Of a stretch of 45,195 nt of DNA, positions 1 through 43,391 are shown piece after piece. Where the stretch lies: the IMG/VR virus record IMGVR_UViG_3300045988_169289; one strand, given 5' to 3'. Numbering within the stretch: the first letter of the stretch is position 1; the number at the start of each line of letters is the position of its first letter. Source of the stretch: a virus. Under the pieces are notes generated by a model. It was not told the origin of the DNA, did not search any database, and saw only the letters and a list, made by a program, of their open reading frames with translations. The position numbers were made by a program, and so were the translations under genes.

Positions 1-100
1 CCCTCGTTACCGAGACGCCCTTATCGAGTTGCTAGCTCTTCCCCTTCAGCGGGTGAGCAGGGGACTCACACCCCTTAGTAACGCGCCCTGCTGGGCGCAC
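1..100 (-). mobile_element. First 100 nt of the group II intron (duplicate of 45077..45176 created by the contig overlap)
   Basis: The reverse complement of 96..100 is GTGCG, the canonical group II intron 5' end. The sequence continues as domain I across the contig junction. Confidence 0.8.
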
Positions 101-119
101 TCACGAAAATCCCCGCCAA
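1..119. repeat. Terminal direct repeat copy 1 (circular-assembly overlap)
   Basis: Bases 1..119 are repeated exactly at 45077..45195. The repeat lies inside group II intron domain I, so it marks closure of a circular 45076-bp molecule rather than an att site or packaging repeat. Confidence 0.9.
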
Positions 120-2318: not shown

Positions 2319-4856
2319 TTATCTCATCGGTTGATCCGCCATTCTCGGCGCGCGCGTCGGCGTGAGACTGTCAAGCGGCAACCAGTAGTCCTGTCCCGTC
2401 CCACGGCGCAACTTCTTTTCCATCCGCGACAGGTATCCCGGAGACATCCACTCATTGAACTCGTTCATAAAGGCGCGGTCAATCGCCGTTGACGTGTACC
2501 ACATATTGAGGAACGGAAGGTGCGAGCGGATTGAACGCACAGTTTTCGCACCCGGTTTTGTGTCCTTGTCGTAGATAGGTGCACGAGCCCAAGCAAACGC
2601 CGCGTCCGAAGCCTCAATCACCGAACCAAGCTGAGGGCCAAGAATGTTAGCCGCGCCAGACATTGCACCGTAACGAGAATCATCCGAGAGTCCGTTCACA
2701 ATCCAGTCCCCAAGGAAACCTAAGCCGCCACCCTTTGTCAGCGCAGCCGCCCAGAATTTTCCGGAGAAAACATCTTCTGCATCCTTACCATTGAGCAAGT
2801 CTTGAATCTGAAGGGACAATGCCCCCATGACCGTCGTCGCCACCACCACTCCTGCTGCATACCCCAGCTGATCCACAAAACTCCCGTGGCGATTCAAGAA
2901 CTGAACGCGCCGCCAATGGCGTTCCATCATTGCCAAAGGAAACGACTTGAAGAGCATCGCAGCACGCCACAACTCGCCCGACATTGTTCCTCGCTTATTA
3001 CCGCGGCTTGCTTCCGTCCGAGTAATCAAGTCAGGACCGAGGGAAGCCATTTCGCCTTCATTGAGGATAAAGCCGATGACCTTACTCGCAAGAGATTCAG
3101 CGTTCTCGTCAACGATCATCCTCTTCGGATCCGAAGAAATTTCCTTCAGCCGCTTATACGACAGGAACTTCACGCCCTTGAATTCTTCTGTCCCGGCCTC
3201 CTGCATCAGCTTCCATTCAGCCTCTCCGATGCCGCCGTCCTGAAGTCGCGCCCGATCATAATCATCCAACGCCGACCAATCTTTCTCAATGAGTTTACCG
3301 AGGGACGCCAGCATATTGAGGTTGAATGCCCGGCGCACCGCATCAGTCCACGCCGTCAGGAAAGAAGCCTTCATTGAGGCATTCGCCAGTTTGGCCGTCC
3401 ACCCTTGTCCCAAATTATCGCTACCCCACCGAATGAAGTCGGACGAGATACTGTCGGCAATGAGGCCGCAACGATTCGCATAGTCTTTCCACTCAGAGCC
3501 GTAGGCCGAAAAGAGAAAACGCATCCCCTGCCAAAAATCCATACGGTTGAAACCGGTAGCCACAAAGTACGTCGAAATATCGGAAAAGGACGAAATAAAC
3601 GCCTTCCCCAATTTACCGGCAACTTCGAGATTTCGCCACCCAGAGAGGAAGCGCACGGCAGGTTCAGAGTTGACCGCCATCGCACTCGCCTCACCGGAAA
3701 GCACGCGCCACATTTCATCCAACGTAACCCGCGTCAAGCCGTGGTGATCTGAATACTTAGTTAGGAGTTCCCAACTGCTTTTTTCGCGCCGAGCATCAAG
3801 CGCCTGGGCGTCGGCAATCTCTTTGAGAAATTTGAACGTCGTCTCCGCTTGTGGCCCAAATCCCTCCATCATCGCTATGTCGTGGCTCATCTTGGAAACG
3901 TGCCCGATGAGCGTACTCGTCAAACTACCCTGACCGTACTTCGCTTCGTACTGCAGGTAAGAATCCGCATCCTTGAAATGCAGCTCACGATGAGGATACT
4001 TCTTGTACCCCACCAGACTCGGTTCTGCCGGGGTTTCCAAAGCGTCCCACAGATTATCTGCGTTATGTCCGGAAGTCACAATGTCTTCCCATGCCTCACC
4101 AAGGAAGTCCCGCAACTGACTGTCGGTCATCCGCTGACCGTTGTCCTGCTTATAGCGGGTTCTGTCCATAAGCGGGAACACCTCATCAATCCAAGCATTC
4201 TTCCCGCCGCCTTTTTTATTTCGAACTTTCGCCCAATCGTGCGACTGCGGAATATAGCCATAGTCAATAAGACCAATCCTTGCACCTGCATGTAAGGCAC
4301 GGCCCCGCATATCCTTCGCCGTCTTTGCCCATGCCTCAGCTGCAGCCTTTGCACGGGCGTTCTTTGTGTCTTCACCATAGACCTCACGTGCGAAATCGCG
4401 AGCATCTTCGGCGTTTTCTACAAAACCGAGCCATTTCGAGCGAATGCCGTTAAGCGTATCAAGCATCGAAGTCAGGTACTCGTTTCGAATGCCTTGTGCA
4501 GCGCGTTCAACACCGAGCATCAGTTTGGCGACGCCCGCGTGAGCGTGAATGTCCTCTTCCCGCGCAAGGCGATCCAATTCTCTCAGCGAGCGGTTTTGTG
4601 CGAGAACCTGCTTATAACGCGCAGCCTTCTTTTGCCGAGCCTGCTCCTGTAAATCCTTCGCCAGCTCACCACCGGCGGCCTGAATGCGTTCCGCCTGAGT
4701 CATTGAGCCCCAGCGTTCCCAAAAGTCTTTACGCTTGGAAAGCGTCTGCATTTTGGACTCGAAGGCGGCAATAATCTGTTCGCCTTCTTCGTCGCTGATT
4801 GTGCCTTCTTTGCGACCGAGCGTCTGCCCGATCAAGTCCTTACATTCTTGTTTCAT
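2319..4856 (-). CDS. Large virion-associated protein, probably an internal/ejection protein (unknown family)
   Basis: ORF 2319..4886. The ATG at 4856 overlaps the upstream stop as ATGA. It is the last gene of the internal-virion-protein block. No polymerase or hydrolase motif was recognised. Confidence 0.55.
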   Translation of the reverse strand: MKQECKDLIGQTLGRKEGTISDEEGEQIIAAFESKMQTLSKRKDFWERWGSMTQAERIQAAGGELAKDLQEQARQKKAARYKQVLAQNRSLRELDRLAREEDIHAHAGVAKLMLGVERAAQGIRNEYLTSMLDTLNGIRSKWLGFVENAEDARDFAREVYGEDTKNARAKAAAEAWAKTAKDMRGRALHAGARIGLIDYGYIPQSHDWAKVRNKKGGGKNAWIDEVFPLMDRTRYKQDNGQRMTDSQLRDFLGEAWEDIVTSGHNADNLWDALETPAEPSLVGYKKYPHRELHFKDADSYLQYEAKYGQGSLTSTLIGHVSKMSHDIAMMEGFGPQAETTFKFLKEIADAQALDARREKSSWELLTKYSDHHGLTRVTLDEMWRVLSGEASAMAVNSEPAVRFLSGWRNLEVAGKLGKAFISSFSDISTYFVATGFNRMDFWQGMRFLFSAYGSEWKDYANRCGLIADSISSDFIRWGSDNLGQGWTAKLANASMKASFLTAWTDAVRRAFNLNMLASLGKLIEKDWSALDDYDRARLQDGGIGEAEWKLMQEAGTEEFKGVKFLSYKRLKEISSDPKRMIVDENAESLASKVIGFILNEGEMASLGPDLITRTEASRGNKRGTMSGELWRAAMLFKSFPLAMMERHWRRVQFLNRHGSFVDQLGYAAGVVVATTVMGALSLQIQDLLNGKDAEDVFSGKFWAAALTKGGGLGFLGDWIVNGLSDDSRYGAMSGAANILGPQLGSVIEASDAAFAWARAPIYDKDTKPGAKTVRSIRSHLPFLNMWYTSTAIDRAFMNEFNEWMSPGYLSRMEKKLRRGTGQDYWLPLDSLTPTRAPRMADQPMR

Positions 4857-7800
4857 GCCGGAATCCCGTTGTTTCTGATGATGCACATTGCGGCCGTCGC
4901 CAACCCAGCCATATCCGTATCCGCCTGCTTATCAATCGAGGCTTCATCCGCCAAAATCTCCGCAGCCGTCTTTTGGTGCTCAATGCCATTTTCATCCTTG
5001 AATTTATAGACAAAATCAGGATTAAGCGCAGCCAAATCCTCAACCTGCACACGTTCGGAATTTTCTTCGGATAGCCCTTCGAGTTCGTGAGCCTGATGTG
5101 TCTCAAGTTCAGCCGCAGCCTTCGCCTCAGCATCCAACCCTGCATCCGGCGGAATATCGGGCGGAGGTTCTGACGCAACTCCGGCATCTTCGGCCACCGT
5201 CTCTACGATCGACTTCATCACGTTTTCGGCCGGTTTTTCTGCCTGCTGCATCGCTTGCAAGGTATTGCGCATCGCCACAACGTCCACTGCCGGGAGTGCC
5301 TCACGGAAGCCCTCGGTAGCCCCCTTCTCGCGCATCGCCGCATTGCCTTCGTCAATCAGGCGGTTTTGCGTATCCCGGAAGATACCCATCACGTCGGCGA
5401 GGTCTGTCGAGACGTTTTCTGCTTCACCAAACAAACCTGCCTGAGGCCCATTGCCGGACGACTTCAGCCGGTTTTCCACCGCAGCCGCGAACGGTTCAAG
5501 CACCCGAGCAATGGCCGCAGCTGAGTTCTGATTCTCAGCAATGAACCCTAAAAGCTGCTGCACCGCCGGGTTATCGCCAAATACGTCACCCTGTCCGACG
5601 ATACTTTCAAGCGGCGTCCCTTCGATCTTCGCGTTACGGATGCGGTTCACCACGTCCACCAACACCGACCCCAGGTCAACCGCGTCGTTCGAGGCTTCTC
5701 GGATGTTGATAACGTGAGGCGCGAAAGCCGCCATCGCGTTCAAAATGCGCTTGATCCCCTGCTTATCGGTATCGTCCGCCACCAGAGCCGTCAACGTCCG
5801 ATCTCGGTAGGCTTCATAGAAGACGGCCGCACGGAGTCGATTCGTCGCGGTCTCTGTCGGCCGACCGTCTGCCGTGAGGAGCTTGCCGAGGGAATTCGGT
5901 TCACCAATATCAATCGTGAACTGCCGCACCGTTTCCGGAGTCGGCGCACCGTCCTCATCGAACTGATACTTCCAAACATTGTTCCGGATCCGCGGCGAAT
6001 CCTGCACCGCCGTTTCGAGAGCCGACTTTTCCAAGACGTTTGAGGAGTTCGACCGTTCGATAAAGCCCGTCTCCACCGCTTCCGGCGGCATGATGCGCAC
6101 CAGCACCGGGTGCTGCATCCCTGCCACTACTTCCGGATTGATCCCTACGGATTGCGCATCGGCCATCAAGTCCTGTCGGTATTGCTCAGCCGTACCACGG
6201 TTGTAGGCTTCGGAGAGCCCGGCCATGCGTCCGTTACCCGCTATCGCGTGCATTCGAGACGGATCAGTACCGTATTCAGCAACCGGCGTCCCGTCGAAGT
6301 TGTTGGAGCGGAGAACCGAATCCGCCTCGACCACGGCGTAGGTCATCGGGATTTTATGGCTGCCGTCGGCCACGGTTTCCGTATTCCCCAAATACCGTGA
6401 ATCAGGCAGCGTTCCAAAGGACACAATCGGCGCACCGGAATCCGTCGTGCGGGAGACGGAAAGTCGCGTGTAGTCCGGAGCTGTGGCAATGGCGTTCATC
6501 TGTCCGACAGACACTGCGCCCGTGCGGTCACGGTTCTGAAGCACCACAATCGTCCCCGTGTCGCCCATCTGGAAGGACTTCGCAAAGGCGTTCTTCCCCT
6601 GTCGAACCGCTGCATCATTCACCGGGGCATTTTTCATTGCCTGAGAAACGTCCACCTGTTCACCGGAGTTCATCGCCTGAGCCGCCTGCTGCTGAGCGCG
6701 AATCGCCGCCGTATAAGCATTCGGAGCCGAACCGTCCTGCAACGGAGCTGTAACCTTTTGGTTATTCGTACGCTGAGCCTGAATGACACGGGCCGCCGTC
6801 ACCTGTCCGGAATTCGACCGGAAGGACGCCATTTTCTTTTCGACGTCGTACATCCGGTTAAGCACCCGGCGAACATCGGGCGAAAGTTCCGGTAGATCTT
6901 CGCCGAACTGCGCCTTGTAGCGTTCGCCGATTTCCTTCTTGGCTGCATCGTCGCCGGCACCTTCGCCCACGAGGTCCCGGTACATATCCATCAACCACCA
7001 GGCGAAGTTCCGGAACATACCCTGCAAATACCCTGCCGGCACCTCACCTTCGGACAGATAGCGTTCCGTCCAAGCCGCATAACGCTCCTGCAGTTTGGCT
7101 TTCTGCTCAAAGGGCAGCGCGTTGTACTCCTCAACGGACTTGAGACCGAACGCCTTCAGCAACGCGTCAATGTCGGCCCGCGCTTCCGGGGAAAGGTTTT
7201 CGTCGGCCGCGTGCGCAAAGAGGTTCGTCAGGTACCAGTGCGAATGTTCGTGTGAGAACGTGGAAAGATTCGCATTCGGCGTAAGTTTGATGGTGTTCGT
7301 CTGCGGGTTGAAGGAACCGCGGATTTCGCTTTCACCCCTGCCATGCTGAAACAGCACGTCCCCGCGATCCTGTTGCAGTTTCTGTGACAACTCCTTTTCA
7401 GCCTGCAAGCGATTGTTTGTCCGTTCGCCACCAGGGAGGACAGTATCTTTCGCGTATGTGCGCACCTCAACGCCGGCATCCTCCAGAACCTTCAGCACTT
7501 CCGGTGAGGTCCCTTCAGGCACCACCGCGCCCGCAAACTCGCTCAAGCCTACTGCACGTTGAGGCTTTGCCTCAAAATAATCCGTAAGCCCCTTTTGCAC
7601 GTCCGTGAGAATTTTCACGCCGGAGTCCAACAGTTCTGACGGGAACCCTCCCTTCGGCTCCTTGAAACCGTTTTTGACGAGCGCAGCGCGGACTTTCTCA
7701 GTCGTCGGCTTCCCCTTCGCAGAATCGGCCAACGCCCGCATCGCATCGTCCATCGCTGCAAAGGTATCCTTGTAGCCGTAGAAGTCTGCCGCCCGACTCC

Positions 7801-10800
7801 TGAAGTCACTCATCGCGGCATCAATGCTCTTGTTAGCCTCATCAGCCGTCGCCGGATCAACCACCCTTTCGCGATTCGCCTGAATGCTTTCTACTGACGA
7901 GAACTTCTTCGAGGCCGCTGCGCGAACCTTGCCCGGCCCAAACGTCATCGTGTCTTGCGTGTTTTTTGCCACACGCTTCGTCATAGCCTTGACAACGTTC
8001 TGCAGCGTCACCGGAACCAGTTTGCCGCCGACCTTGATTTTCGGCTCACCAAAAAGGCCATTCGTCTTTTTGGCAACCCAGGCATCAAAACCTTCCGAAT
8101 TATTCTCGAAGACCTCGCGAATTCGCTTTTCCGTCGCGTAGGAATCAATCTGCGGCTCCGTCGGCGCTTTACCAATCTTCTCAACATTGTTGATCAGGGT
8201 ATAAAGATAGGCATCCACCAAACGACCGCCGTTGCGAATCTTGTCGGCATTCCGCTTCTGAACGCGAGTCGCCTTATCACCAAGCGCATCAACCGCCTGC
8301 ACGTACGCTTCGTTGTAGGCCTGCATCGAACCTGCCACATCGAGCGATTGGTTAACACCAATCTTTTGGAACAACGGAAGCAACAGATGCTCAAGAGGCG
8401 TCCCGGCGTAGGGTTGCAGATACACAGGTTCAACCTTGATGCCCTTCTCATCGAGAAACATCTTCTGCGAGACAACCGAGTTACGGAATCGCCACATAAA
8501 GTCGTCACGGTCTGGGCTATCAATGAGCGACCTCATGGTATTGTCCATGCCGCCGCGGAAAAACCGCTCAGTCTTCCGATACTCCTGCCGTAGAGCCTCG
8601 GCCTTCTTCTTATCAACGGACTTTCCCCACTCAAACGCGGGGAACGTATTCGTATAGGCGTCCGCGCTGTAAACCGGCGTTCCTGTCGCGGGATCAATAA
8701 GCCCCTTTGTACCGATCAGGGTAATGTCGCCAAAACCGGAATAACCGGAATTCACCTTCGTGATGCCTATTGACGGAACGGCCAATCCGCCGAGTGCGTT
8801 AGCCTTCAACAAATTGTCGGCATCGATATGGTGCACCGCAACGAGCCGATCGGTCGGTTGACTCGGAGCATCGTAAGAGAATGCTCCTGTCGTCTGATTG
8901 AACTCCTGCGGTTCGTAGTACGCCGCCCCTTCGGCACGATAGGAATCATCCACTGAATCAAACGCCCCGCGTTGATCTTCGCGGACAAAACCCCTAAGCA
9001 AATCTGATAAACTGACGGTATCAGCAGACGACCACGCAGTAGGCACCCCAGCACCGGGGGACTGCGCGGCACCGGGAGGGACACTAGTAGCGTCTGTGGG
9101 TGCAAGTGGTGCTATAACCCCCTCCCCGCCTGCGGTACCAATTTCTTCCACTTCCACGGCATCAATGCTGTGCGTCGCCAACCGCTCACCACCGGCCGAA
9201 GGCAAATAATCCCGCACAATCAACTGAACACGATAGTTTTTTCCACCGTAAGAAGCTGCAGCTGTAAACTTGTGGATTCCGCGAACATCGGGGTTTTGAT
9301 GCTGAGTGTCTGCGTGAGATTCGATCAGCTTAGCGTCCGAAACAATTTGTTCGAAGTTTTGGACAATGGCGTCATACAAGCCGGCGTTTTTCTCTGCGAA
9401 CTTAAACGGAGGTAACGACTTTTTGGCGTCTCCGCGAGAACCTGTAAGAACCCAGCCACTGTCAGAGTTTTTGACGCCTTCTGACAGTTTTCCTACCAAC
9501 GTATCGATAGCAGCCTTGTGCCCTGCTTCGGGAACGTCGCTCATGTGAACCACGCTGACGGCTTCGTTTTCTCGTCCGATTGTCTGCGGCCCCATGTGCC
9601 ATTCTTTACCCTGCGTCACCGGCATATTGAAGGCTTCTTTCGGCACCTCGGCAGACTTTCCGTCCTCCGACCACACGATCTTTGCCGAGAAGTCCCGCAC
9701 CTTGTCCGGCTCAATCCCCAAACGCTTCGCGAGCGACACCACGGCCCGAGCGTTAATCGCTGCCTGTGTCCCGGCCTGCTCGAAGTTGAACTGACTCTTC
9801 CCCTTATTGAAAAGAGCTGTTCGCTGATCCTCGTAGACAAGACGGGCCGCGTCCTGATACTTCTGCGTCCGAATCTGCTCAGGACTGCGCCAAAACGCTC
9901 CGCCGAAGGCCGCACCCAAGGCCGCGCTTACCGCCAAGTCCACGCCGTTCAAGTCGTACTGCTGAGCCAGTTGGTTGTAATCCTGATGCTCAAGGATGAA
10001 TTTGATCCCCTCGACTTCGGCCACGTTCGTCCCGGCGTTCGCTGCAGCACCGTAGGCCGCGGACATCCCGCGACTCGCACCGAGAACCGCCGGAAGCCGC
10101 ATACCGATTGCGTTCATCCCGAACGACACCAGGCCGGCATTGATAGCCGTGTTACGGTCTACGCCCTCATCCATCAGGCGATTCGTCTCGTCGATGCCCA
10201 CGTCAGCACCGAAAGCCAATGCGCCGCCGGCGACACCGCCCGCCAAACCGTAGCCCATTGCCTTCGGAAGCGTCTTGAAAAGTCCGTAAACAATCTGAGA
10301 AGCCGTGCCCATCGTTTCGGGATCGACCTCGAAGTGAACCTTGTTGTAGTCGCGAATGTCACGGGCGTTCTGATCCATGACGGCCTTTTGCCCCTCCCAC
10401 CAGGCGCGGGTTTCGTCCGTACCCATGCGGGAGAGAATGTCGGCCCCGGTGTTCTTGAAAGCCGTGATAGCGGAACTCGCCGTCTGCAGCACCGCAGCGG
10501 GAATGCCTTTCCACGTATCGCCTAGCCCCGAGAAGACGCCGAGAGGCGTATTGACGCCCGGAAGCGGACGTTCCTCAAACACCTTGTCCTTCAGATCAAG
10601 AACAACGCCGGGCTCATTGCGCAGGAAGTAACGGCGCAGTCGATCTGCCTCAACCGACGACAGTTTCCGTCCCGGCGTGTAAACGTCCTTACCCTCAGCA
10701 TTCCGAGACCATACGCCGCCCGTCACGCCGTCCTGACCGCTGTAAATCGACTGATCCGAGAAAGTCGGATGATTCGGCTTTTTGTATTTGTCGCCCAAGT

Positions 10801-11089
10801 GACCGCGCTCATCCTCAGACATCGTGCCGGACTGCAGCTCTTTCCAAGCGCCGCGCAAGTCGTAGTCGTAAACGTCTTTTTCGCGGTGATTTTCCGTCGC
10901 CCATGCCTGATATTTTTCTTCCTCATCAGGCGCCAAAACGGTATTGAACTTATCCGAATAGTCTTCCGAAAACGCATCGCGCGGGCCAACGGCATCCGTA
11001 CCCCAGCGATTGATCTTTGCCTGCCGCATCTGTTCTTCGCTCATCTGCGGCTGCTGAGAGGACGGGCTATAGATTTCCGAAAACAGCAT
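4853..11089 (-). CDS. Giant (2078 aa) multidomain internal-virion/ejection protein, polyvalent-protein-like
   Basis: One uninterrupted ORF in the position of T7 gp16. A Gly/Ala-rich hydrophobic region spans about aa 270-400 (GLAGGVAGGALAFGADVG...LGAAFGGAFW). An HExxH motif HEHSH occupies aa 1280-1284 (nt 7238..7252). QNRDR, GAPIV and GNGR motifs at about aa 1518-1621 are reminiscent of ParB-like domains. Confidence 0.7.
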   Translation of the reverse strand: MLFSEIYSPSSQQPQMSEEQMRQAKINRWGTDAVGPRDAFSEDYSDKFNTVLAPDEEEKYQAWATENHREKDVYDYDLRGAWKELQSGTMSEDERGHLGDKYKKPNHPTFSDQSIYSGQDGVTGGVWSRNAEGKDVYTPGRKLSSVEADRLRRYFLRNEPGVVLDLKDKVFEERPLPGVNTPLGVFSGLGDTWKGIPAAVLQTASSAITAFKNTGADILSRMGTDETRAWWEGQKAVMDQNARDIRDYNKVHFEVDPETMGTASQIVYGLFKTLPKAMGYGLAGGVAGGALAFGADVGIDETNRLMDEGVDRNTAINAGLVSFGMNAIGMRLPAVLGASRGMSAAYGAAANAGTNVAEVEGIKFILEHQDYNQLAQQYDLNGVDLAVSAALGAAFGGAFWRSPEQIRTQKYQDAARLVYEDQRTALFNKGKSQFNFEQAGTQAAINARAVVSLAKRLGIEPDKVRDFSAKIVWSEDGKSAEVPKEAFNMPVTQGKEWHMGPQTIGRENEAVSVVHMSDVPEAGHKAAIDTLVGKLSEGVKNSDSGWVLTGSRGDAKKSLPPFKFAEKNAGLYDAIVQNFEQIVSDAKLIESHADTQHQNPDVRGIHKFTAAASYGGKNYRVQLIVRDYLPSAGGERLATHSIDAVEVEEIGTAGGEGVIAPLAPTDATSVPPGAAQSPGAGVPTAWSSADTVSLSDLLRGFVREDQRGAFDSVDDSYRAEGAAYYEPQEFNQTTGAFSYDAPSQPTDRLVAVHHIDADNLLKANALGGLAVPSIGITKVNSGYSGFGDITLIGTKGLIDPATGTPVYSADAYTNTFPAFEWGKSVDKKKAEALRQEYRKTERFFRGGMDNTMRSLIDSPDRDDFMWRFRNSVVSQKMFLDEKGIKVEPVYLQPYAGTPLEHLLLPLFQKIGVNQSLDVAGSMQAYNEAYVQAVDALGDKATRVQKRNADKIRNGGRLVDAYLYTLINNVEKIGKAPTEPQIDSYATEKRIREVFENNSEGFDAWVAKKTNGLFGEPKIKVGGKLVPVTLQNVVKAMTKRVAKNTQDTMTFGPGKVRAAASKKFSSVESIQANRERVVDPATADEANKSIDAAMSDFRSRAADFYGYKDTFAAMDDAMRALADSAKGKPTTEKVRAALVKNGFKEPKGGFPSELLDSGVKILTDVQKGLTDYFEAKPQRAVGLSEFAGAVVPEGTSPEVLKVLEDAGVEVRTYAKDTVLPGGERTNNRLQAEKELSQKLQQDRGDVLFQHGRGESEIRGSFNPQTNTIKLTPNANLSTFSHEHSHWYLTNLFAHAADENLSPEARADIDALLKAFGLKSVEEYNALPFEQKAKLQERYAAWTERYLSEGEVPAGYLQGMFRNFAWWLMDMYRDLVGEGAGDDAAKKEIGERYKAQFGEDLPELSPDVRRVLNRMYDVEKKMASFRSNSGQVTAARVIQAQRTNNQKVTAPLQDGSAPNAYTAAIRAQQQAAQAMNSGEQVDVSQAMKNAPVNDAAVRQGKNAFAKSFQMGDTGTIVVLQNRDRTGAVSVGQMNAIATAPDYTRLSVSRTTDSGAPIVSFGTLPDSRYLGNTETVADGSHKIPMTYAVVEADSVLRSNNFDGTPVAEYGTDPSRMHAIAGNGRMAGLSEAYNRGTAEQYRQDLMADAQSVGINPEVVAGMQHPVLVRIMPPEAVETGFIERSNSSNVLEKSALETAVQDSPRIRNNVWKYQFDEDGAPTPETVRQFTIDIGEPNSLGKLLTADGRPTETATNRLRAAVFYEAYRDRTLTALVADDTDKQGIKRILNAMAAFAPHVINIREASNDAVDLGSVLVDVVNRIRNAKIEGTPLESIVGQGDVFGDNPAVQQLLGFIAENQNSAAAIARVLEPFAAAVENRLKSSGNGPQAGLFGEAENVSTDLADVMGIFRDTQNRLIDEGNAAMREKGATEGFREALPAVDVVAMRNTLQAMQQAEKPAENVMKSIVETVAEDAGVASEPPPDIPPDAGLDAEAKAAAELETHQAHELEGLSEENSERVQVEDLAALNPDFVYKFKDENGIEHQKTAAEILADEASIDKQADTDMAGLATAAMCIIRNNGIPA

Positions 11090-11091
11090 TG

Positions 11092-13200
11092 TTATTCCTT
11101 CGTCTTCACTAAATCGAACGTATAGAGGGAGCCGTCGTCACCAAACACCGATTCCCCATTAAGCATCAGACTGTAGGTCACACTGCCGTCTGAGTTCACC
11201 TTCTCAGTCTGCAGGGCGAGTTTCGGCATCTTGGCGGCCAACTCTGCGCCGGTCATCGCCAGTCCGCTGACGTAAAACGTGCCACGGGCCTTTTTGACTT
11301 CTTGCGCCTGGGTTTCTACGAGATTCTCCAAGTCTTCGGAGAAAATGGCCGACGCGTCGATCCCTTTCGGCATCACGGTTTTCTTACCGTTGTACGTTTC
11401 AACATCGCCGCCGACGGCCGCAGCCAGGGCGTCTTCAATGCTTCCGGAACCCGCCCATTGCTGATAGGCCAAGATGCCGCGTGCCAGTTCCACCGTATCG
11501 GCCCGGGCCGCATCCGACTTAAACAGCCCCTGCGTTCCATCGTTGTCCGGATTGATAGCTGCGTAAAGTCGGGCCACATTGCCGGTTTCCACGGCCGGAT
11601 CATCTTTGACCTGCTTTTCGGCGATGAGCTGCAACCCCCGAAGGTACATTTCTCCGGAGGTTATGCCGCCGTCGCCTGGAACAATGTCAAACCCCGCCAT
11701 CGCTATGGCGTACTTGTTGCTGTTTCCCTTCAGTTGCCCTGACACCATACGAATCCCGTCCGGACCCGCCGTGTCAGCAATCGTTTTCAAAAGTGCTACG
11801 CGGGTTTCAATCGGCGAGCTATCAAGAAGCGTCACCAGTCCTGCAGCCTCCTGCTTAGAGAAAAGGCGTTGCGGCACCTGCCAATCCTTCGCCATCGCGT
11901 CCGCCATTTCCACACGCTTCTGAAGTTGCGCTTTCAGCTCATCTGCGTTCTGCCAATTGAGAGGGGTGATGCCGTACTGATTCGTAGCCATCGCGACACC
12001 GATAGGATCAGACTCGCGTTCCTTCAAAATTTTTACCCCAAGAGCTTTTGCTTCTTTCGTTCGGGCGGAGTTCACGAAATCCATCACTCCGGCGCTATCC
12101 AAGCCCCAAAGATTTCGGGACGCCTGAGCATCCCGCACCTTTGCCGCCTTTTCTGGATCAAGTTCGTCCAAACGCTGCAGTAGCGTAACCGGCAACTCTT
12201 CATTGTTGTCTAGCGCCTTGTAGGCCGTATTAACAAGATCAGACGCTTCCATGCGCTTTTCCCATTCACGCACCGCCAGCGCCTGCCGAACCTTCACCGT
12301 AACGCCCTGCCGAACGTCGGCATCAGTGCCCTTTGTGGCCTCGTGCGTCGCCTTCAGAATGTCCGAATCGCTTCCGGAAGTCGCGAGCACCTTTCCCACC
12401 AGGTACTCAATGTCCTGTTTCTGCTGACCGGCTTTGATGAGTTTTTCGCTTTTAGCGACCTGCTCAGCGCTCATATCGTCTTTGTGCGCCTTCAGCCACG
12501 CACGAGCCGCCGCGGGGTTCTTGCCCTCAATGAAAATACCGATAGCGTTCGAGTTAACGGTGTCCATCAGTTTCGGCACATCAACCGGAAGGCCAGACTT
12601 GTCAGCCTGCCACTGCAGTTCAGACATTGCAACGGCGTAGCCTGAGTTCGCCCTGTCCATATCGCCGGACTGGACACCGTTTAAAACGTCATTCGTCGCA
12701 GTATTGAAAGTCGCCGCGTGCGTCGCCTTCTCGAATACCGCCTGTTGCTTCACCATATGGGATTGAAGTTCTGCCCCCAACTGCTGATAGGCCGCCTGCG
12801 AATAGAGGTCATACATCTTCCGCTGACGATCTGTCTTCAGTTGACCGCGGCGATTTGCGAAGAGTGCGCGTCCCTTTTCGAGATACTCTTCCGACAGACT
12901 TTTCCCGTCAGGGCGGTTAAGGGCGTTACTGCCCGTGAGATTGCCCCAACCCTCTTCCGGATTCGACTTCAAATCTTCGAGTTCGCTCTTGGACTGATTG
13001 ATAGCGTCCTGCACGAGCGTCTTGTCGGTTTCGGCCTGCCACTTATCCACAGCCGAGACAATCTTATCAGCAGCCCCGGCGACGAGTTTGTCAGTACGCC
13101 ACTTGGAATCCGGCATAGCATGAAGCGTCCCGAGCCCCCTTACAGCGTTCGGAGTCACGCCGCCCTGATACGGATTACCGGGCACAGTGATAGTTCCCAT
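11092..13200 (-). CDS. Internal virion protein (gp15-like position)
   Basis: ORF 11092..13212. The ATG at 13200 overlaps the upstream stop as TAATG. It is about 700 aa, mostly helical/coiled by composition, and lies between the small and giant internal proteins. Confidence 0.5.
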   Translation of the reverse strand: MGTITVPGNPYQGGVTPNAVRGLGTLHAMPDSKWRTDKLVAGAADKIVSAVDKWQAETDKTLVQDAINQSKSELEDLKSNPEEGWGNLTGSNALNRPDGKSLSEEYLEKGRALFANRRGQLKTDRQRKMYDLYSQAAYQQLGAELQSHMVKQQAVFEKATHAATFNTATNDVLNGVQSGDMDRANSGYAVAMSELQWQADKSGLPVDVPKLMDTVNSNAIGIFIEGKNPAAARAWLKAHKDDMSAEQVAKSEKLIKAGQQKQDIEYLVGKVLATSGSDSDILKATHEATKGTDADVRQGVTVKVRQALAVREWEKRMEASDLVNTAYKALDNNEELPVTLLQRLDELDPEKAAKVRDAQASRNLWGLDSAGVMDFVNSARTKEAKALGVKILKERESDPIGVAMATNQYGITPLNWQNADELKAQLQKRVEMADAMAKDWQVPQRLFSKQEAAGLVTLLDSSPIETRVALLKTIADTAGPDGIRMVSGQLKGNSNKYAIAMAGFDIVPGDGGITSGEMYLRGLQLIAEKQVKDDPAVETGNVARLYAAINPDNDGTQGLFKSDAARADTVELARGILAYQQWAGSGSIEDALAAAVGGDVETYNGKKTVMPKGIDASAIFSEDLENLVETQAQEVKKARGTFYVSGLAMTGAELAAKMPKLALQTEKVNSDGSVTYSLMLNGESVFGDDGSLYTFDLVKTKE

Positions 13201-13976
13201 TACTTGCTCCAACTGAAATTAGAAGGCATCTTGAGGCTCCATCCTTGAGCCCCGGATGAGCCAGACGACGTAGCACCGCTACCGGAACTGCCACCGAAAA
13301 CAGCCTTGAAATCGCTTAAGGTTGCGCCGCTGTACGAGGACTTGCCAGAACCGGACTGGGAGTCGCCCATCGGGCCATTCATAATGTCCATCGCATAGTT
13401 GTTGAAAGTGGTCAGCGCAGCCGCCCATGGAGAAATAGACTTTGCAGCCGAACGGTAGGCAAGTGCCTGATTCTTGTAATCGACAGCCGACCGGCGGTAG
13501 CCCCAGGACTCAGCAACGGCATTCGCCATCACCTGATTCACCTGCATTTCCTTCACAATGTCAATGGAGGTCAGCACTTCGGCTGTCGATCCGGAACCGC
13601 CCACGCGGACGCCCGCTGCAGCCTGCCGGGTTTTGGTGGTTGACTTTGCCTGCCCGGCCTCATACCCAATAGCCGCCGCCTGACGTTCGCCGCCGGCCAT
13701 CACGTCGTCTGCCGCCGTCTCGTAGCTCTGCGCCTGCAAATTCATTAAGTCGGCATTCATTTTCATGAGCGCCTTTTCCTGCTTTGCAGCGCGATAGGCA
13801 AGCCACGTCCCGCCGATCTGCATCACGGACGTGTAACCGACCTTGAATCCTTGCTGAAATTGAGAGAAGCCGCCCGCACCTTTTGCGCTCATGAAAGCGT
13901 TTGCGGACGACGAAATCGCGGAGGATTGTGTAGATCCTTCGCTTGTCTGTTTGGTTGGATGGAGATATTGAGGCAT
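13200..13976 (-). CDS. Small internal virion protein (gp14-like position), Gly/Ser-rich C-terminus
   Basis: 258 aa. SD GGGAG lies upstream of the ATG at 13976. It is the first gene after the lysis cassette and is preceded by the conserved CGTCCATAAA motif. Confidence 0.45.
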   Translation of the reverse strand: MPQYLHPTKQTSEGSTQSSAISSSANAFMSAKGAGGFSQFQQGFKVGYTSVMQIGGTWLAYRAAKQEKALMKMNADLMNLQAQSYETAADDVMAGGERQAAAIGYEAGQAKSTTKTRQAAAGVRVGGSGSTAEVLTSIDIVKEMQVNQVMANAVAESWGYRRSAVDYKNQALAYRSAAKSISPWAAALTTFNNYAMDIMNGPMGDSQSGSGKSSYSGATLSDFKAVFGGSSGSGATSSGSSGAQGWSLKMPSNFSWSK

Positions 13977-27151: not shown

Positions 27152-30100
27152 TTAACTCCAAGTTTGTATTTTTGACAGCGCTTCAGCGCCTTCAAAATCG
27201 AGGTTGTTGCTGTTGCTTAAAATCTTTGTATTCGTAGCTTTTTTTCCCACGAATACATGGAAAAACTCAGAAGCCCCGTCCAGGTTTTGAACATCAAATC
27301 TATTGCTGTCTATGTCTATAGCGACTTGACTTGTTTCTATGTTTTTGTTCAAAACAGAAACTACGTGTATCACTCCCGCCTTCGTATTATCGGCGGAATT
27401 TCCACGACGACTTTCGTTCAAAAAGCTGTTGCCACGAATTCGCACGAGACATTTACATGGAGCATCGTGAAGGAAATATATTGAAAGGTAAGCGGCAAAT
27501 TCAGAACCACTATTATCGGATGGCCCCGCAGAATCAAAGCAATTATTTTCTATGTTTATAACCCTTGTGAGAACAGGACGGATATATAGCGGGCCCAATT
27601 CTCCGCTCTCCGCGCACGGAACAGCCCCAACAAAAGAATTCGTGATTGAGATTTCTTCAAAGGCTGTACCATAATACTTTGCGTAAGGTGCCGGCGATAT
27701 AGCGCAATTATTTAACTTTAAAATTTTTCCTGTATTTGAAATTACATTTCCGCTATTGAACCACCAGAAAACTCTAGAGTCGGAGATATAAAGAGCGTTA
27801 ATATAAGACGATTCCCAAAAAACAAATCCAGGAACATCCGAATTGACAATTGTCATGTTCCCTATGTATTTCGCCCCTATCAGGAATCCGGGAGTGTTTT
27901 GATCAGAGCGATCAACGTATCGTTTTACATTAGTCGAATTACAAATTCGAATGCTATGAATATCACTAGCCGCAAAGTGATAACCTGTTTGCCCGATTAT
28001 CTGATTATCGGACAGAGTAATGACCTTCGCCCCCATCGACAGGCCGTCCAAGACGCTGTTTGTCACGCTCATCTTCAGTACGTCGCCATGCGAGTCGCAC
28101 GAATACTTTCCCGAGTAGGATTTAAAAACGCAGCGATCAATGAAGACGTTATCCGAGTTGATAGATACCAATGTGCCGTCAAGTAAAAATCTTGCCCCCC
28201 CGGACGCGAAGCAGTGCCAAACGCATTGTGCATTGGTTTGCTTGACGTAAATATTTTTGCAGCCAAACGAGACGATACCATACCGAACGTTGCCACCATT
28301 ATTAACGACGGTCGCGCCATCGATGGATACGCCATGGCAAAGATTCGTCGACAATGCAATGTAAGGGTTTGCATCAGCGAATCGAACGCCGTCAATAGTA
28401 AGATCAACAACATTGCTAAAAACCAAAAGTTCCACGACTTCGGTTTTTAGCTTTGTAGAAAATCTTCCGCCAATAACCCTAATGTTAGATAAGGTATTTT
28501 TAAAAAGCAGAATATCAGAGCTGTCCTTATCGAAAGGCAGGGTTAGCGTATCAATTAGCTTAAGTTCATTTCCATCAATTTCGTTGACTCTTAAAAGTTC
28601 GCCTCTTTTATAATATTTTCTCGATGTGTCTATATTAGTATTCTTGTCGACAATAGCCGCAAGTTTATAGCCCGCATTCTCTTTTTCTTCTGTCAAGAAA
28701 AGATCGTGGTTTGTATCGGCCGCAAGGCACGAGACAGTAATTACAACCGATTCTCCATACGCAACCGTCGCCGAAACAGTGACTACGGGGTTATTGCAAG
28801 TAAAATCGGTGTTACTGTCGCTATCATGAAACGTCGGATTATAATCGACAGCATATTCATCGCTTGATAGTTCCCTGTCTTTTATGTACACATTCGTGAC
28901 GGTAATACTTGTTATTCCGAATACAGGTATTTGGTATCTATTACCCGCTGAACGTTTAAACTCAAAAATTCTCGTCGAGCGTACGGCTACGCTTTTGCTA
29001 AGATTGGCTCTGTCGTATGTTACGTTTGTATCACCACACACGAAAATATGCGTGTTATTTTCGGCAATAATATCCGCGCCGCCAAAATCGAAAACTTTAT
29101 TTGACTTCTTATTGATAACCGCATCAGACACCAGATAGGAGCGGGAGGAAAATTTAACCACCCCCGCATCGCTATCAACTGCCAGCTGAATAGCTTGTCG
29201 GTCATCGGTTACGCCATCCCCAACGGCGCCAAACTGATCTACCGAAACCGTGTCCCCATAGATAAGCAACTCAGCCAGCAACCCGCCGAGCAGTTCTTCA
29301 GAAAACTTCTCGGTCGACTCCACGATCCGGTAGACCGCGCCACCTCCATCCCCCGGCTCATAGTATCCCTGTGTAACCGCCGTCATCCCGGGCGCTAGGA
29401 ACTTCGCCACCTTCATATCGGCAACGGACTTAAACACGTGGGGCTTCGCGGCGAGCCAGTCGAGTACCGGCAACGGCGACGTACCGCCCGGCATTATCAG
29501 GGACTGTCCCCCCGTAATCGCGTTTGCCTGCTCCGCCCACCCCTTGGCCTCGGCCGCATAGTCCTTCGATTTCAGCAGCTCTTCGAGGTTCTTCGCGATC
29601 GCCGCAATGGCCTCAGCGTTTTCCGCCGTGACACCGACCGACTTGATATTTTCGGACACGGTGACGATCTGATCCTTAAATGCGAGGAGTTTGTCGGCGT
29701 ACTCTTTGGAAGTGGCCGCAGAGGCGGCGGCGTTCGTCTCGGACTGCAGAGCCTTAGCCGCCGCATCAAGCGCAGAAGCCGTTGCTTCGAGCAACTTATC
29801 GCGTAGCTGCCGTGGGGTGATGGTGTCCGTGGGATCAGTAATGAGCGCGCGATTGACTTGCTCGACAAGCTGCTGACAGAGAATCGTCAGCCGGTCGAGC
29901 GAATCATTGAGCACCGTCGGAAAGAACGCCCCTCGGTTTGTGAAAACCGTCGGCTGTACATAGGCTTCGCCCGAGATAACGGCAAGCGCCGCGCCTTTTA
30001 CCAGTGGCTCCTTAAGCGTAATCTTGCCGCCAGGGTTGACATCTTGGTCGTCATTAAGGACGCAGACGTACGCATTTGGGTTAAGAACCGCATCAACGCC

Positions 30101-30226
30101 ATGGGGCGGCGCAACGTGAACTTCGGCATCCTCAGACTTCAGTAATTTGAAAGAAAAAGAAAACTGCGTCTGCACACCGTCGCCGACATAAATATCGCTT
30201 CGGCGAAGTTGAGATTGAATAGCCAT
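27152..30226 (-). CDS. Tailspike / tail fibre with right-handed beta-helix (pectate-lyase-like) depolymerase domain
   Basis: 1024 aa. The N-terminal virion-anchor region is MAIQSQLRRSDIYVGDGVQTQFSFSF... The motif DQFGAVGDGVTDDRQAIQLAVDS (about aa 330) is typical of the pectate_lyase_3 / tailspike fold. The C-terminal two thirds are Asn/Ser/Val-rich and AT-rich. Confidence 0.8.
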   Translation of the reverse strand: MAIQSQLRRSDIYVGDGVQTQFSFSFKLLKSEDAEVHVAPPHGVDAVLNPNAYVCVLNDDQDVNPGGKITLKEPLVKGAALAVISGEAYVQPTVFTNRGAFFPTVLNDSLDRLTILCQQLVEQVNRALITDPTDTITPRQLRDKLLEATASALDAAAKALQSETNAAASAATSKEYADKLLAFKDQIVTVSENIKSVGVTAENAEAIAAIAKNLEELLKSKDYAAEAKGWAEQANAITGGQSLIMPGGTSPLPVLDWLAAKPHVFKSVADMKVAKFLAPGMTAVTQGYYEPGDGGGAVYRIVESTEKFSEELLGGLLAELLIYGDTVSVDQFGAVGDGVTDDRQAIQLAVDSDAGVVKFSSRSYLVSDAVINKKSNKVFDFGGADIIAENNTHIFVCGDTNVTYDRANLSKSVAVRSTRIFEFKRSAGNRYQIPVFGITSITVTNVYIKDRELSSDEYAVDYNPTFHDSDSNTDFTCNNPVVTVSATVAYGESVVITVSCLAADTNHDLFLTEEKENAGYKLAAIVDKNTNIDTSRKYYKRGELLRVNEIDGNELKLIDTLTLPFDKDSSDILLFKNTLSNIRVIGGRFSTKLKTEVVELLVFSNVVDLTIDGVRFADANPYIALSTNLCHGVSIDGATVVNNGGNVRYGIVSFGCKNIYVKQTNAQCVWHCFASGGARFLLDGTLVSINSDNVFIDRCVFKSYSGKYSCDSHGDVLKMSVTNSVLDGLSMGAKVITLSDNQIIGQTGYHFAASDIHSIRICNSTNVKRYVDRSDQNTPGFLIGAKYIGNMTIVNSDVPGFVFWESSYINALYISDSRVFWWFNSGNVISNTGKILKLNNCAISPAPYAKYYGTAFEEISITNSFVGAVPCAESGELGPLYIRPVLTRVINIENNCFDSAGPSDNSGSEFAAYLSIYFLHDAPCKCLVRIRGNSFLNESRRGNSADNTKAGVIHVVSVLNKNIETSQVAIDIDSNRFDVQNLDGASEFFHVFVGKKATNTKILSNSNNLDFEGAEALSKIQTWS

Positions 30227-41716: not shown

Positions 41717-41862
41717 CAAACGCACAAGAATCCGCGCATAATGCCCGCGTTCGGTTGAACTACCGAACCGGGATTGGCGTCCCGAACGAGTACACGGCAC
41801 ATGATGCCGCCTTACGTTCTGACGTTCGTGCGGATTTTTTGTGCATAGCAGTCTTCCTTGAC

Positions 41863-41935
41863 GGGCAGACTGTATGGGGCACGCTTGCGTGCGCCGGATC
41901 CGTGTACCCGGTACGCCAACCCGTACAGTCTGCCC
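41863..41935. repeat. 12-bp perfect inverted repeat with a 49-nt spacer inside a structured, probably non-coding region
   Basis: gggcagactgta (41863..41874) pairs with tacagtctgccc (41924..41935). The spacer contains the palindrome cggatccg. Confidence 0.75.
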
Positions 41936-41991
41936 ACCCCGATTGGCGTCGGCGTGAGCAGGTTCAAAACTTGTTACACGGAGGACACGCT

Positions 41992-42267: not shown

Positions 42268-42269
42268 AA

Positions 42270-43374: not shown

Positions 43375-43391
43375 TTCGTTTAAACAACTTC

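What the first reader, a model, noticed from the sequence alone, without database searches (positions are those of the whole stretch)
4853..11089. 2078-aa single-ORF internal virion protein with a membrane region, an HExxH zincin motif and ParB-like motifs (polyvalent-protein architecture)
The gene sits where T7-like phages encode the ejected core protein gp16, but the product is about 60 percent larger. It has a Gly/Ala-rich hydrophobic stretch (aa 270-400) suited to membrane insertion. An isolated HEHSHWY metalloprotease-like motif lies at aa 1280-1286 (nt 7238..7252). A region at aa 1518-1621 carries QNRDR, GAPIV and GNGR, which recall ParB/sulfiredoxin-fold domains found in phage and plasmid polyvalent proteins. 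Such proteins are injected with the DNA and are thought to carry anti-defence activities. No peptidoglycan hydrolase motif was seen. The 845-aa protein that follows (2319..4856) is also unassigned.
Basis: partly seen in the sequence, partly recalled or inferred. Interest (0 to 1): 0.65.

Follow-up and report, generated by a model that had tools for sequence, protein, structure and literature searches.

The report
Phage ejection protein carrying swappable effector domains
This 2078-residue gene of a gut temperate phage encodes a protein, probably packed in the virus head, that joins a membrane-channel-type module to an RNase-like, a zinc-protease-like and a ParB/DdrB-like domain. It is a clear but not unprecedented example of the "polyvalent" proteins that phages are thought to inject with their DNA.

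Summary
One uninterrupted 2078-aa ORF lies at 4853..11089 (-), and every quoted motif is at the stated position.

The polyvalent-protein reading is supported. Residues 1617-1915 align with the phage P1 anti-restriction protein DdrB.

The HExxH motif lies in a real domain of about 170 aa, found in 3875 protein clusters. H1280, E1281, H1284, E1335, E1342 and Y1370 are invariant. A zincin fold is only weakly supported: no Pfam hit at threshold and no Foldseek hit in the PDB.

The positional claim is off by one gene. The next gene (2319..4856) is the T7 gp16 (IVP-D) homologue, 31% identical to BcepC6B gp17. The big ORF shares its Gly/Ala-rich module with BcepC6B gp16 and so is an additional ejection protein carrying passenger domains.

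Phages about 95% identical in the flanks carry no cassette, a PBECR5 cassette, or LPD23 + DUF6782 ± ART cassettes at aa 736-1212/1245.

Verdict: a new member of a known kind (Iyer 2017; Hardies 2016). All functions are inferred.

The parts
4853..11089 (-). Whole 2078-aa ORF (stop codon included): an internal-virion, polyvalent protein
10589..10969 (-). N-terminal domain, aa 41-167 (YDLRG...GH..DKYKKPNHPTFS). It is a widespread phage domain with no Pfam or PDB match and unknown function. Elsewhere it is fused to lysozyme- or glucosaminidase-type proteins and to structural proteins.
   Evidence: 17 invariant residues; pLDDT 90; no PDB fold match; BFVD matches
9854..10450 (-). Gly/Ala-rich hydrophobic module, aa 214-412 (phrog_1145 / 14422 / 11561). 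It is shared with BcepC6B gp16 and the Acinetobacter phage TPWB-05 949-aa protein, and is the putative membrane or channel module.
   Evidence: (E 2e-7 to BcepC6B gp16 aa 115-259)
9206..9490 (-). LPD3 domain, aa 534-628 (large polyvalent-protein-associated domain 3). It is replaced by MuF_C in variant P0008.
7454..8881 (-). Variable cassette, aa 737-1212. Block A is PBECR5 (aa 737-892, nt 8414-8881) with conserved H753, P772-S773, D810 and Y812. Block B (aa about 1020-1215) carries the invariant motif YFExKPxR...EFxGA. The cassette is absent or replaced in near-identical phages.
6830..7342 (-). HExxH domain, aa about 1250-1420, a zincin-like putative metallopeptidase present in every variant. 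HEHSH lies at nt 7238-7252.
   Evidence: negative results
6092..6544 (-). DdrB-like ParB/sulfiredoxin-fold domain, aa 1516-1666 (LQNRDR, GAPIV, GNGR, AY), with an insertion of about 45 aa
5300..6091 (-). DdrB-like helical region, aa 1667-1930, homologous to P1 DdrB aa about 170-431 (phrog_5143 / 2299 / 14693)
4856..5299 (-). Acidic C-terminal tail, aa 1931-2078, conserved among close relatives; function unknown
2319..4856 (-). Downstream 845-aa gene, translationally coupled by an ATGA overlap. It is the IVP-D (T7 gp16) homologue of this phage: phrog_684, 31% identical over its full length to BcepC6B gp17.
   Evidence: PMC4819975 Table 2
11092..13212 (-). Upstream 706-aa internal virion protein: a muralytic N-terminal part (phrog_10475; similar to BPP-1 bbp11) plus a phrog_992 part (similar to BcepC6B gp15)
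13200..13976 (-). 258-aa internal virion protein (IVP-B / T7 gp14-like; phrog_418; 36% identical to BPP-1 bbp12)

Best explanation
The ORF encodes an internal virion (ejection) protein of a temperate podophage of the BPP-1/epsilon15/BcepC6B type. The genome is 45.1 kb and circular, and the host is probably a Sutterellaceae bacterium.

The conserved N-terminal part (aa 1-735) holds a Gly/Ala-rich hydrophobic module. That module is shared with the protein that lies between the gp15-like protein and the T7-gp16 (IVP-D) homologue in related phages: BcepC6B gp16 and the TPWB-05 949-aa protein. This part is inferred to secure packaging into the capsid core and to take part in the trans-envelope ejection channel.

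Passenger domains hang on this chassis:
- LPD3;
- an optional PBECR5 (BECR-fold RNase-like) cassette;
- a constant HExxH zincin-like domain;
- a DdrB-type ParB domain plus a DdrB-like helical region.

The protein is inferred to be ejected ahead of or with the DNA. The HExxH domain most likely cuts the polyprotein, or host proteins. The RNase-like and ParB/DdrB-like domains most likely blunt host defence, as the P1 Dar proteins blunt type I restriction.

Shown here: the ORF, the domain content, the synteny, the homology and the cassette polymorphism. Inferred: packaging, ejection, proteolysis and any anti-defence activity.
For: - Domains: Pfam finds LPD3, PBECR5 and ddrB-ParB above their cut-offs.
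- Homology to P1 DdrB: 29% identity over aa 1617-1915, with LQxRDR, GAPI, GNGR and AY conserved. DdrB is an internal head protein of the P1 Dar anti-restriction system and is co-ejected with the DNA (PMC12810830; PMC5512222).
- Gene order: tail tube B, then the 258-aa IVP-B-like protein, the 706-aa muralytic protein, this ORF and the 845-aa IVP-D homologue. The same order is seen in a 74%-identical relative, in TPWB-05, in BcepC6B and in BPP-1.
- The hydrophobic module matches the same three PHROG families as BcepC6B gp16 and the TPWB-05 protein, and BLASTP gives E 2e-7.
- HExxH domain: 3875 clusters, nearly all inside proteins of 1000-4400 aa. HExxH, two Glu and one Tyr are invariant. The domain is present in every variant and in BPP-1 Bbp10, next to a PBECR1 domain.
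- Cassette swapping occurs between flanks that are about 95% identical.
- Literature: polyvalent proteins (PMC5512222), and internal virion proteins that host passenger domains destined for the cytoplasm (PMC4819975).
Against: - There is no direct evidence that the protein is packaged or ejected.
- The hydrophobic module has no segment that reaches standard transmembrane hydrophobicity.
- The HExxH domain has no Pfam hit at threshold, no PDB sequence hit and no Foldseek hit (best E 0.8), although the model is confident. Its link to the DUF6782 metallopeptidase family reaches only 41% hhalign probability.
- PBECR5 matches only positions 4-164 of the 239-position model.
- The role of P1 DdrB itself is poorly defined, and the gene is non-essential.
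- No sequence similarity to T7 gp15 or gp16 was shown for this ORF.
Confidence: 0.65

Rival explanations
1. It is the direct orthologue of T7 gp16 (IVP-D), enlarged by insertions.
For: It lies in the internal-virion-protein cluster after the gp14-like and gp15-like genes. BPP-1 Bbp10, listed as IVP-D by Hardies (PMC4819975), has the same size, the same position after bbp11 and the same HExxH domain.
Against: The next gene is a full-length homologue of BcepC6B gp17 and of epsilon15-like gp17 proteins, which are the IVP-D representatives in Hardies' Table 2. The big ORF matches only profile positions 796-1093 of phrog_9880 (its own aa 1029-1422). Bbp10 aa 733-2046 match positions 912-2218 of that profile. 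The ORF's hydrophobic module matches BcepC6B gp16, not gp17.
Confidence: 0.1
2. The passenger domains serve the phage's own DNA entry or host take-over rather than defence evasion. On this view the ParB/DdrB part clamps or protects the entering genome end, as T7 gp16-C binds DNA, and the RNase shuts off host mRNA.
For: T7 gp16-C is a cytoplasmic DNA-binding hub (PMC8954989). ParB-fold domains bind DNA and nucleotides (PMC5512222). The ParB/DdrB and HExxH modules are constant in all variants, as expected for a core function. Iyer et al. also consider mRNA targets for PBECR domains.
Against: The closest characterised homologue, P1 DdrB, belongs to an anti-restriction system and is dispensable for growth. 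Presence/absence polymorphism of the RNase cassette among near-identical phages fits an accessory, conflict-driven role better.
Confidence: 0.2
3. The HExxH domain is not a peptidase. It could be another metal-dependent hydrolase or a purely structural helical module.
For: A confident AlphaFold model has no Foldseek match to any solved zincin. There is no Pfam or PDB profile hit. The model shows only a two-stranded hairpin ahead of the HExxH helix.
Against: HExxH plus downstream Glu, Glu and Tyr are invariant over 139 diverged sequences. A strand-then-HExxH-helix arrangement is typical of zincins. There are weak matches to DUF6782, Tox-MPTase4 and Reprolysin models. Zincin-like peptidases are the commonest domain of polyvalent proteins (PMC5512222).
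Confidence: 0.2
4. The long ORF is an artefact: several genes fused by assembly or frameshift errors.
For: Nothing beyond its unusual length.
Against: The same uninterrupted architecture appears in many independent assemblies at 74-92% identity, including contigs of NCBI genome assemblies. The flanks are about 95% identical at the DNA level to a prophage in the Duodenibacillus massiliensis genome.
Confidence: 0.01

Closest known systems
Polyvalent proteins of phages and conjugative elements (Iyer, Burroughs, Anand, de Souza & Aravind 2017, PMC5512222)
   Same: It is a single polypeptide with several conflict-type domains (LPD3, PBECR5, DdrB-ParB, an HExxH domain), encoded among late/virion genes. 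Orthologues show mosaic domain swapping, as described for Helicobacter jhp1044.
   Different: The array is mounted on an ejection-protein module (phrog_1145). The HExxH domain and the N-terminal domain are not covered by the Pfam models derived from that study.
Phage P1 DdrB (Dar anti-restriction system)
   Same: It shares the DdrB-type ParB domain with conserved LQxRDR, GAPI, GNGR and AY, plus about 260 aa of following helical region at 29% identity. Both proteins also carry an HExxH motif.
   Different: P1 DdrB is 995 aa, belongs to a myovirus and is encoded in the darA operon. Its HELGH domain is C-terminal and resembles ours only at motif level (hhalign probability 16%). Our ParB domain has an insertion of about 45 aa. 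P1 packaging depends on DarA and Hdf, and neither was looked for in this window.
Bordetella phage BPP-1 Bbp10 (2052 aa)
   Same: It has the same lineage, position after the SLT-bearing bbp11, and size. It is also polyvalent (LPD22 + PBECR1) and carries the same HExxH domain (33% identity) directly after its PBECR domain.
   Different: The rest of the sequence is unrelated. Bbp10 is followed directly by the tail fibre, and Hardies lists it as the IVP-D homologue. Here a separate 845-aa gene is the IVP-D homologue.
BcepC6B gp16 and the Acinetobacter phage TPWB-05 949-aa protein (epsilon15-group 'gp16-like' internal virion proteins)
   Same: They share the Gly/Ala-rich phrog_1145 module and the same slot, between the phrog_992 protein and the phrog_684 IVP-D homologue. 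The TPWB-05 protein also carries the DdrB-like region.
   Different: Those proteins carry a transglycosylase domain and are 763-949 aa. Ours lacks it (it lies on the upstream 706-aa protein) and adds the N-domain, LPD3, the PBECR5 cassette and the HExxH domain.
T7 gp16 / N4 gp50 (ejection proteins with enzymatic passenger domains)
   Same: The concept is the same: an ejected internal protein with membrane-active regions delivers enzymatic domains to the periplasm or cytoplasm.
   Different: No sequence similarity to T7 gp16 was shown, and the passenger set is different.

Membership tests
Polyvalent proteins (Iyer et al. 2017) | Two or more distinct effector-type domains in one polypeptide | tested here: met
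   LPD3, PBECR5 and ddrB-ParB all score above the Pfam cut-offs, and there is a conserved HExxH domain
Polyvalent proteins (Iyer et al. 2017) | Encoded by a phage or conjugative element, next to virion or transfer genes | tested here: met
   The window is a circular temperate phage genome, and the gene lies within the internal-virion-protein cluster
Polyvalent proteins (Iyer et al. 2017) | Delivered into the host with the nucleic acid | not testable with these tools
   This needs virion proteomics and ejection assays
DdrB-like ParB domain (PF18763) | Profile match above the gathering score | tested here: met
   67.7 bits for the whole protein and 75.9 bits for the segment, against a cut-off of 27.6. 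Only profile positions 25-119 of 121 are matched, with a long insertion.
DdrB-like ParB domain (PF18763) | Conserved active-site Arg (GxxR) and the family-specific Tyr helix | tested here: met
   GNGR (R1621) and AY (Y1629) align with P1 DdrB and the TPWB-05 protein. The features are as described in PMC5512222.
PBECR5 (PF18814), BECR-fold RNase | Profile match above the gathering score | tested here: met
   87.8 bits against a cut-off of 25. Only profile positions 4-164 of 239 are covered.
PBECR5 (PF18814), BECR-fold RNase | [quoted passage not shown] | tested here: inconclusive
   H753 (28 of 30), S773 (30 of 30) and T790/T813 (26 of 30) are conserved among homologues. Their placement on the fold was not verified because no structure was predicted for this segment.
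Zincin-like metallopeptidase | HExxH on a helix | tested here: met
   The motif is invariant in A1 and 99% conserved in 139 representatives. It lies in model helix 41-58.
Zincin-like metallopeptidase | Third zinc ligand (Glu) on a following helix | tested here: inconclusive
   E1335 and E1342 are invariant and lie in model helix 93-113. The geometry could not be inspected.
Zincin-like metallopeptidase | Recognisable zincin fold or profile | tested here: not met
   No Pfam family reaches threshold. There is no PDB profile hit and the best Foldseek match to the PDB has E 0.8. hhalign to DUF6782 gives only 41% probability.
T7 gp16 / IVP-D | Homology to established IVP-D representatives | tested here: not met
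   The adjacent 845-aa protein, not this ORF, matches BcepC6B gp17 and epsilon15-like gp17 proteins (PMC4819975 Table 2).
Epsilon15-group gp16-like internal virion protein (phrog_1145 module) | Shared N-terminal hydrophobic module and the slot between the phrog_992 and phrog_684 genes | tested here: met
   phrog_1145 E 6e-16, phrog_14422 and phrog_11561. The same three families hit BcepC6B gp16 and the TPWB-05 protein. BLASTP gives E 2e-7. Synteny is shown.

The most novel reading that the evidence does not exclude
The stretch between aa 736 and about 1212-1245 may be a dedicated recombination slot inside an ejected structural protein. Near-identical gut Sutterellaceae phages would use it to exchange ready-made effector cassettes: none, a PBECR5 RNase, or LPD23 + DUF6782 peptidase with or without an ADP-ribosyltransferase. 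This would tune which host defences each phage can overcome.

On this reading, the constant HExxH domain just downstream is an uncharacterised zincin clade, with no solved structural relative, that releases the cargo after ejection. The N-terminal YDLRG...KKPNHPTFS domain would be a new fold tied to cell-wall passage.
Probability: 0.25. Interest if true: 0.6.

Novelty: new member of a known kind. Interest (0 to 1): 0.4.

Why it matters
Polyvalent proteins are widely predicted but almost untested experimentally. This locus offers a natural series of phages whose compared structural region (about 16 kb) is 93-96% identical at the DNA level and which differ mainly in which effector cassette sits inside one ejected protein. 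A related prophage lies in a cultured host, Duodenibacillus massiliensis.

That series would allow direct tests of three points:
- whether such cassettes set host range against particular defence systems;
- whether the constant HExxH domain processes the polyprotein;
- how large cargo passes through a podovirus ejection channel.

The work also flags two widespread phage domains that lack any curated family or structural relative: the HExxH domain (3875 clusters) and the N-terminal domain.

Tried and rejected
- DNA search (megablast) of nt 1-25000 against 50,697 phage records gave no match.
- A sequence search of the whole protein against the PDB gave nothing below E 0.3.
- Profile searches of the HExxH domain (A1) and the N-domain (A2) against the PDB gave only chance hits.
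- Foldseek against the PDB gave no significant match for either confident model.
- hhalign of A1 against the C-terminal HELGH region of P1 DdrB aligned only 15 columns, with 16% probability, so a specific relationship was rejected.
- A diversity-generating retroelement like that of BPP-1 was considered because of the reverse transcriptase. It was rejected: no template/variable repeat pair was found, and the enzyme is a group II intron maturase.
- BLASTP of the 845-aa protein against Bbp10 found no similarity. The idea that Bbp10 equals this ORF fused to the IVP-D gene therefore remains untested at profile level.
- tblastn of aa 1-430 against cultured phages found only the Azobacteroides phage ProJPt-Bp1.

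Full report
**1. The observation**

The window carries a single open reading frame at 4853..11089 on the minus strand. It starts with ATG, encodes 2078 aa and has no internal stop. An AAGGA ribosome-binding site precedes the start. The start lies 2 nt after the stop of the upstream gene. The stop overlaps the ATG of the next gene as ATGA, so the three genes look translationally coupled.

All quoted motifs are at the stated residues: HEHSHWY at 1280-1286, QNRDR at 1518, GAPIV at 1552 and GNGR at 1618.

Residues 201-400 are 27-32% Gly+Ala and hold the protein's most hydrophobic stretches. The 19-residue Kyte-Doolittle means peak at only about 1.2-1.4. 'Membrane region' is therefore plausible but not demonstrated.

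The ORF is not an assembly fusion. The same uninterrupted architecture is found at 74-92% identity in many independent assemblies. One is an NCBI contig with identical neighbours.

**2. The genome around it**

The two ends of the window are identical over 119 nt, so this is a circularly assembled genome of 45,076 bp. It encodes an integrase, an Erf-like recombinase, an Ant-like protein, small and large terminase, portal, protease, major capsid protein and tail tube proteins A and B. That makes it a temperate podovirus with a T7-like structural module.

No cultured phage matches at the DNA level. A prophage in Duodenibacillus massiliensis (Sutterellaceae) is 93-96% identical across the structural genes, which points to the likely host group.

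Read in the direction of transcription, the gene order is:
- tail tube B (886 aa);
- a small peptidase-type lysin;
- a 137-aa ORF;
- a 258-aa protein (phrog_418 'internal virion protein', 36% identical to BPP-1 bbp12);
- a 706-aa protein, muralytic in its N-terminal part (similar to BPP-1 bbp11) and phrog_992 in its C-terminal part (similar to BcepC6B gp15);
- the 2078-aa ORF;
- an 845-aa protein;
- the integrase.

**3. The positional claim is off by one gene**

The 845-aa protein matches phrog_684 at E 1.7e-181. It is 31% identical over its full length to BcepC6B gp17, and it matches the corresponding proteins of phiV10 and SPN1S, of VP5-like Vibrio phages and of Liberibacter phages. Hardies et al. 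list epsilon15 gp17, BcepC6B gp17, VP5 gp18 and SC1 gp9 as the IVP-D (T7 gp16) homologues of this group (PMC4819975). The T7 gp16 homologue of this phage is therefore the next gene, not the large ORF. That gene is also not 'unassigned'.

The large ORF occupies the slot just before it. Its Gly/Ala-rich module (aa 214-412) hits phrog_1145, phrog_14422 and phrog_11561. The same three families hit the N-terminal part of two other proteins:
- BcepC6B gp16, an SLT-bearing 'tail structural protein';
- the 949-aa protein of Acinetobacter phage TPWB-05.

Direct BLASTP of aa 253-397 against BcepC6B gp16 aa 115-259 gives E 2e-7. In both of those phages the protein lies between a phrog_992 protein and the phrog_684 protein.

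Hardies et al. treat epsilon15 gp15 and gp16 as IVP-C candidates. [quoted passage not shown] The large ORF fits that description: an ejection-protein chassis with passengers. Here the muralytic domain sits on the 706-aa protein, as in BPP-1 bbp11. In BcepC6B and TPWB-05 it sits on the gp16-like protein.

**4. Domain content**

Pfam gives three domains above their curated cut-offs:
- LPD3, aa 534-628;
- PBECR5, aa 737-892 (87.8 bits against a cut-off of 25);
- ddrB-ParB, aa 1516-1666 (67.7 bits against 27.6).

All three were defined in the polyvalent-protein study of Iyer et al. (PMC5512222).

Residues 1617-1915 align with P1 DdrB residues 117-431 at 29% identity. LQxRDR, GAPI, GNGR, AY and PVLVR are conserved among this ORF, DdrB and the TPWB-05 protein. 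The ParB domain here has an insertion of about 45 aa between GAPIV and GNGR.

DdrB is one of six internal head proteins of the P1 Dar system. They are co-ejected with the DNA and modulate type I restriction (PMC12810830). It is dispensable for plaque formation.

**5. The HExxH motif**

An exhaustive search with aa 1235-1430 found 3875 cluster representatives at E <= 0.001. Nearly all of the 150 best are embedded in proteins of 1000-4400 aa.

In 139 of the listed representatives (mostly 35-54% identical to the query), H1280, E1281 and H1284 are 99% conserved. E1335 is 99% conserved, E1342 100%, Y1370 99% and D1306 96%. In a 30-sequence alignment, T1277, H1280, E1281, H1284, E1335, E1342 and Y1370 are invariant. 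This is a real, probably catalytic, metal-binding-type domain, not an isolated motif.

An AlphaFold model is confident (pLDDT 84, pTM 0.81). It shows a β-hairpin, a helix carrying HExxH and further helices carrying the invariant Glu and Tyr residues.

Support for a zincin fold stops there:
- no Pfam model reaches threshold; 4 of 30 members touch DUF6782 'putative metallopeptidase' at E >= 0.01, with single weak touches of Tox-MPTase4 and Reprolysin models;
- a PDB profile search finds nothing;
- Foldseek finds no solved structure (best E 0.8);
- hhalign to the DUF6782 domain of sister variants aligns the hairpin and HExxH helix at 41% probability;
- the HELGH domain of P1 DdrB matches only at motif level.

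I read it as a zincin-like metallopeptidase of a clade without curated or structural representation. This is likely but not proven.

The domain is present in every length variant of the protein. It also occurs in BPP-1 Bbp10, directly after a PBECR1 domain. That argues for a core role, such as processing of the polyprotein, as Iyer et al. propose for MPTase domains.

**6. Cassette polymorphism**

Among the closest 120 homologues, aa 1-735 and aa 1213/1246-2078 are typically 85-97% identical to this ORF. The part in between differs:
- absent in the forms of 1553-1622 aa, where residue 736 joins residue 1213;
- the PBECR5 cassette, as here, in the forms of 2065-2126 aa;
- LPD23 + a DUF6782 HExxH domain (2139-2154 aa);
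- the same plus ART-PolyVal (2106-2113 aa);
- ART-PolyVal without LPD23 (1827 aa);
- both the LPD23-DUF6782 and the PBECR5 cassettes (2409 aa);
- a 1865-aa form that lacks only residues 745-941.

One variant (P0008, 2383 aa), which carries both cassettes, also replaces LPD3 with MuF_C.

At the DNA level, the Duodenibacillus prophage is about 93-96% identical on both sides. It diverges exactly over window nt 7329-9609, which is aa 494-1253.

The PBECR5 cassette is itself one coherent unit. Block A (aa 743-890, with conserved H753, P772-S773, D810 and Y812) and block B (aa 1020-1215, with the invariant motif YFExKPxR...EFxGA) co-occur in nearly all of the 32 homologues found. This kind of mosaicism is what Iyer et al. 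describe for Helicobacter jhp1044.

**7. The N-terminal domain**

Residues 41-167 form a separate, widespread domain with 17 invariant residues, including YDxRG, H, D and KKPNHPTFS. It has no Pfam or PDB sequence match. A confident model (pLDDT 90) has no fold match in the PDB.

Among predicted viral structures it matches large structural proteins and a glucosaminidase-domain protein of a crAss-like phage. One homologue is fused to a GH24 lysozyme. A role in cell-wall passage is a guess only.

**8. Mechanism, with shown and inferred steps separated**

Shown here: the ORF, its domains, its place in the ejection-protein cluster, its homologies and the cassette polymorphism.

Inferred:
- The protein is packaged in the capsid core with the other internal virion proteins and is ejected at infection.
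- The N-terminal hydrophobic module takes part in the envelope-spanning conduit, by analogy with the T7 ejection proteins (PMC8954989).
- The C-terminal passengers reach the cytoplasm.
- The HExxH domain releases or activates them.
- The PBECR5 RNase-like and DdrB-type ParB modules act on host nucleic-acid-based defences, or on host or phage RNA.

**9. Novelty and score**

The class (polyvalent proteins), the individual Pfam domains, the link to P1 DdrB and the idea of passenger domains on podovirus internal proteins are all published. BPP-1 already has a 2052-aa counterpart. This is a new member of a known kind, found in an uncultured lineage of gut phages.

Three things are worth keeping:
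- the clean natural series of cassette variants;
- two uncharacterised widespread domains;
- the corrected assignment of the ejection-protein genes.

Interest is 0.4.

Noticed in passing
window 1-119 and 45077-45195: The 119-nt termini are 100% identical, so the window is a circularly assembled, complete phage genome of 45,076 bp.
   Followed up: partly
window 43305-45092 (-), probably running over the contig junction: A group II intron. Rfam finds D1-D4 at 44810-45092 and domain 5/6 at 43305-43376, and there is an RVT_1 + GIIM reverse transcriptase/maturase ORF at 43392-44720. It is not a diversity-generating retroelement like that of BPP-1: no template/variable repeat pair was found. The interrupted gene was not identified.
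   Followed up: partly
window 41857-41941 (+): A C4 antisense RNA (RF01695, 66 bits) lies just upstream of an Ant-like ORF at 42231-43046. This is a P1/P7-type immunity-I module in a podovirus.
   Followed up: no
window 27152-30226 (-): A 1024-aa tailspike-like ORF (tail-protein N-terminus and a pectate-lyase-like repeat) sits between the terminase and portal genes. It lies in a 41.7% GC island within a roughly 55% GC genome, which suggests a recently acquired receptor-binding gene.
   Followed up: no
window 6239-6421 (aa 1557-1617 of the big ORF): The ParB domain has an insertion of about 45 aa between GAPIV and GNGR. The insertion repeats a β1-like element (VVEADSVLRSNNFDG) that resembles the segment preceding LQPRDR in P1 DdrB. 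The loop before LQNRDR is shortened. This may be an internal duplication or a permutation.
   Followed up: no
window 11092-13212 (-), compared with L006 4709-7000 and L005 5627-8476: The muralytic domain moves between neighbouring ejection proteins. It is on the gp15-like 706-aa protein here and in BPP-1 bbp11, but on the gp16-like protein in BcepC6B and Acinetobacter phage TPWB-05.
   Followed up: partly
window 10589-10969 (aa 41-167): A widespread phage domain (YDLRG...GH..DKYKKPNHPTFS, 17 invariant residues) with a confident predicted structure, no Pfam family and no PDB fold match. Elsewhere it is fused to GH24 lysozyme or to glucosaminidase-type proteins.
   Followed up: partly
L001 (CALDCF010000020.1): A 90%-identical copy sits in a metagenome bin labelled Collinsella (Actinobacteria). 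The isolate-genome hit is Duodenibacillus (Sutterellaceae), so the bin assignment is probably a binning artefact.
   Followed up: no
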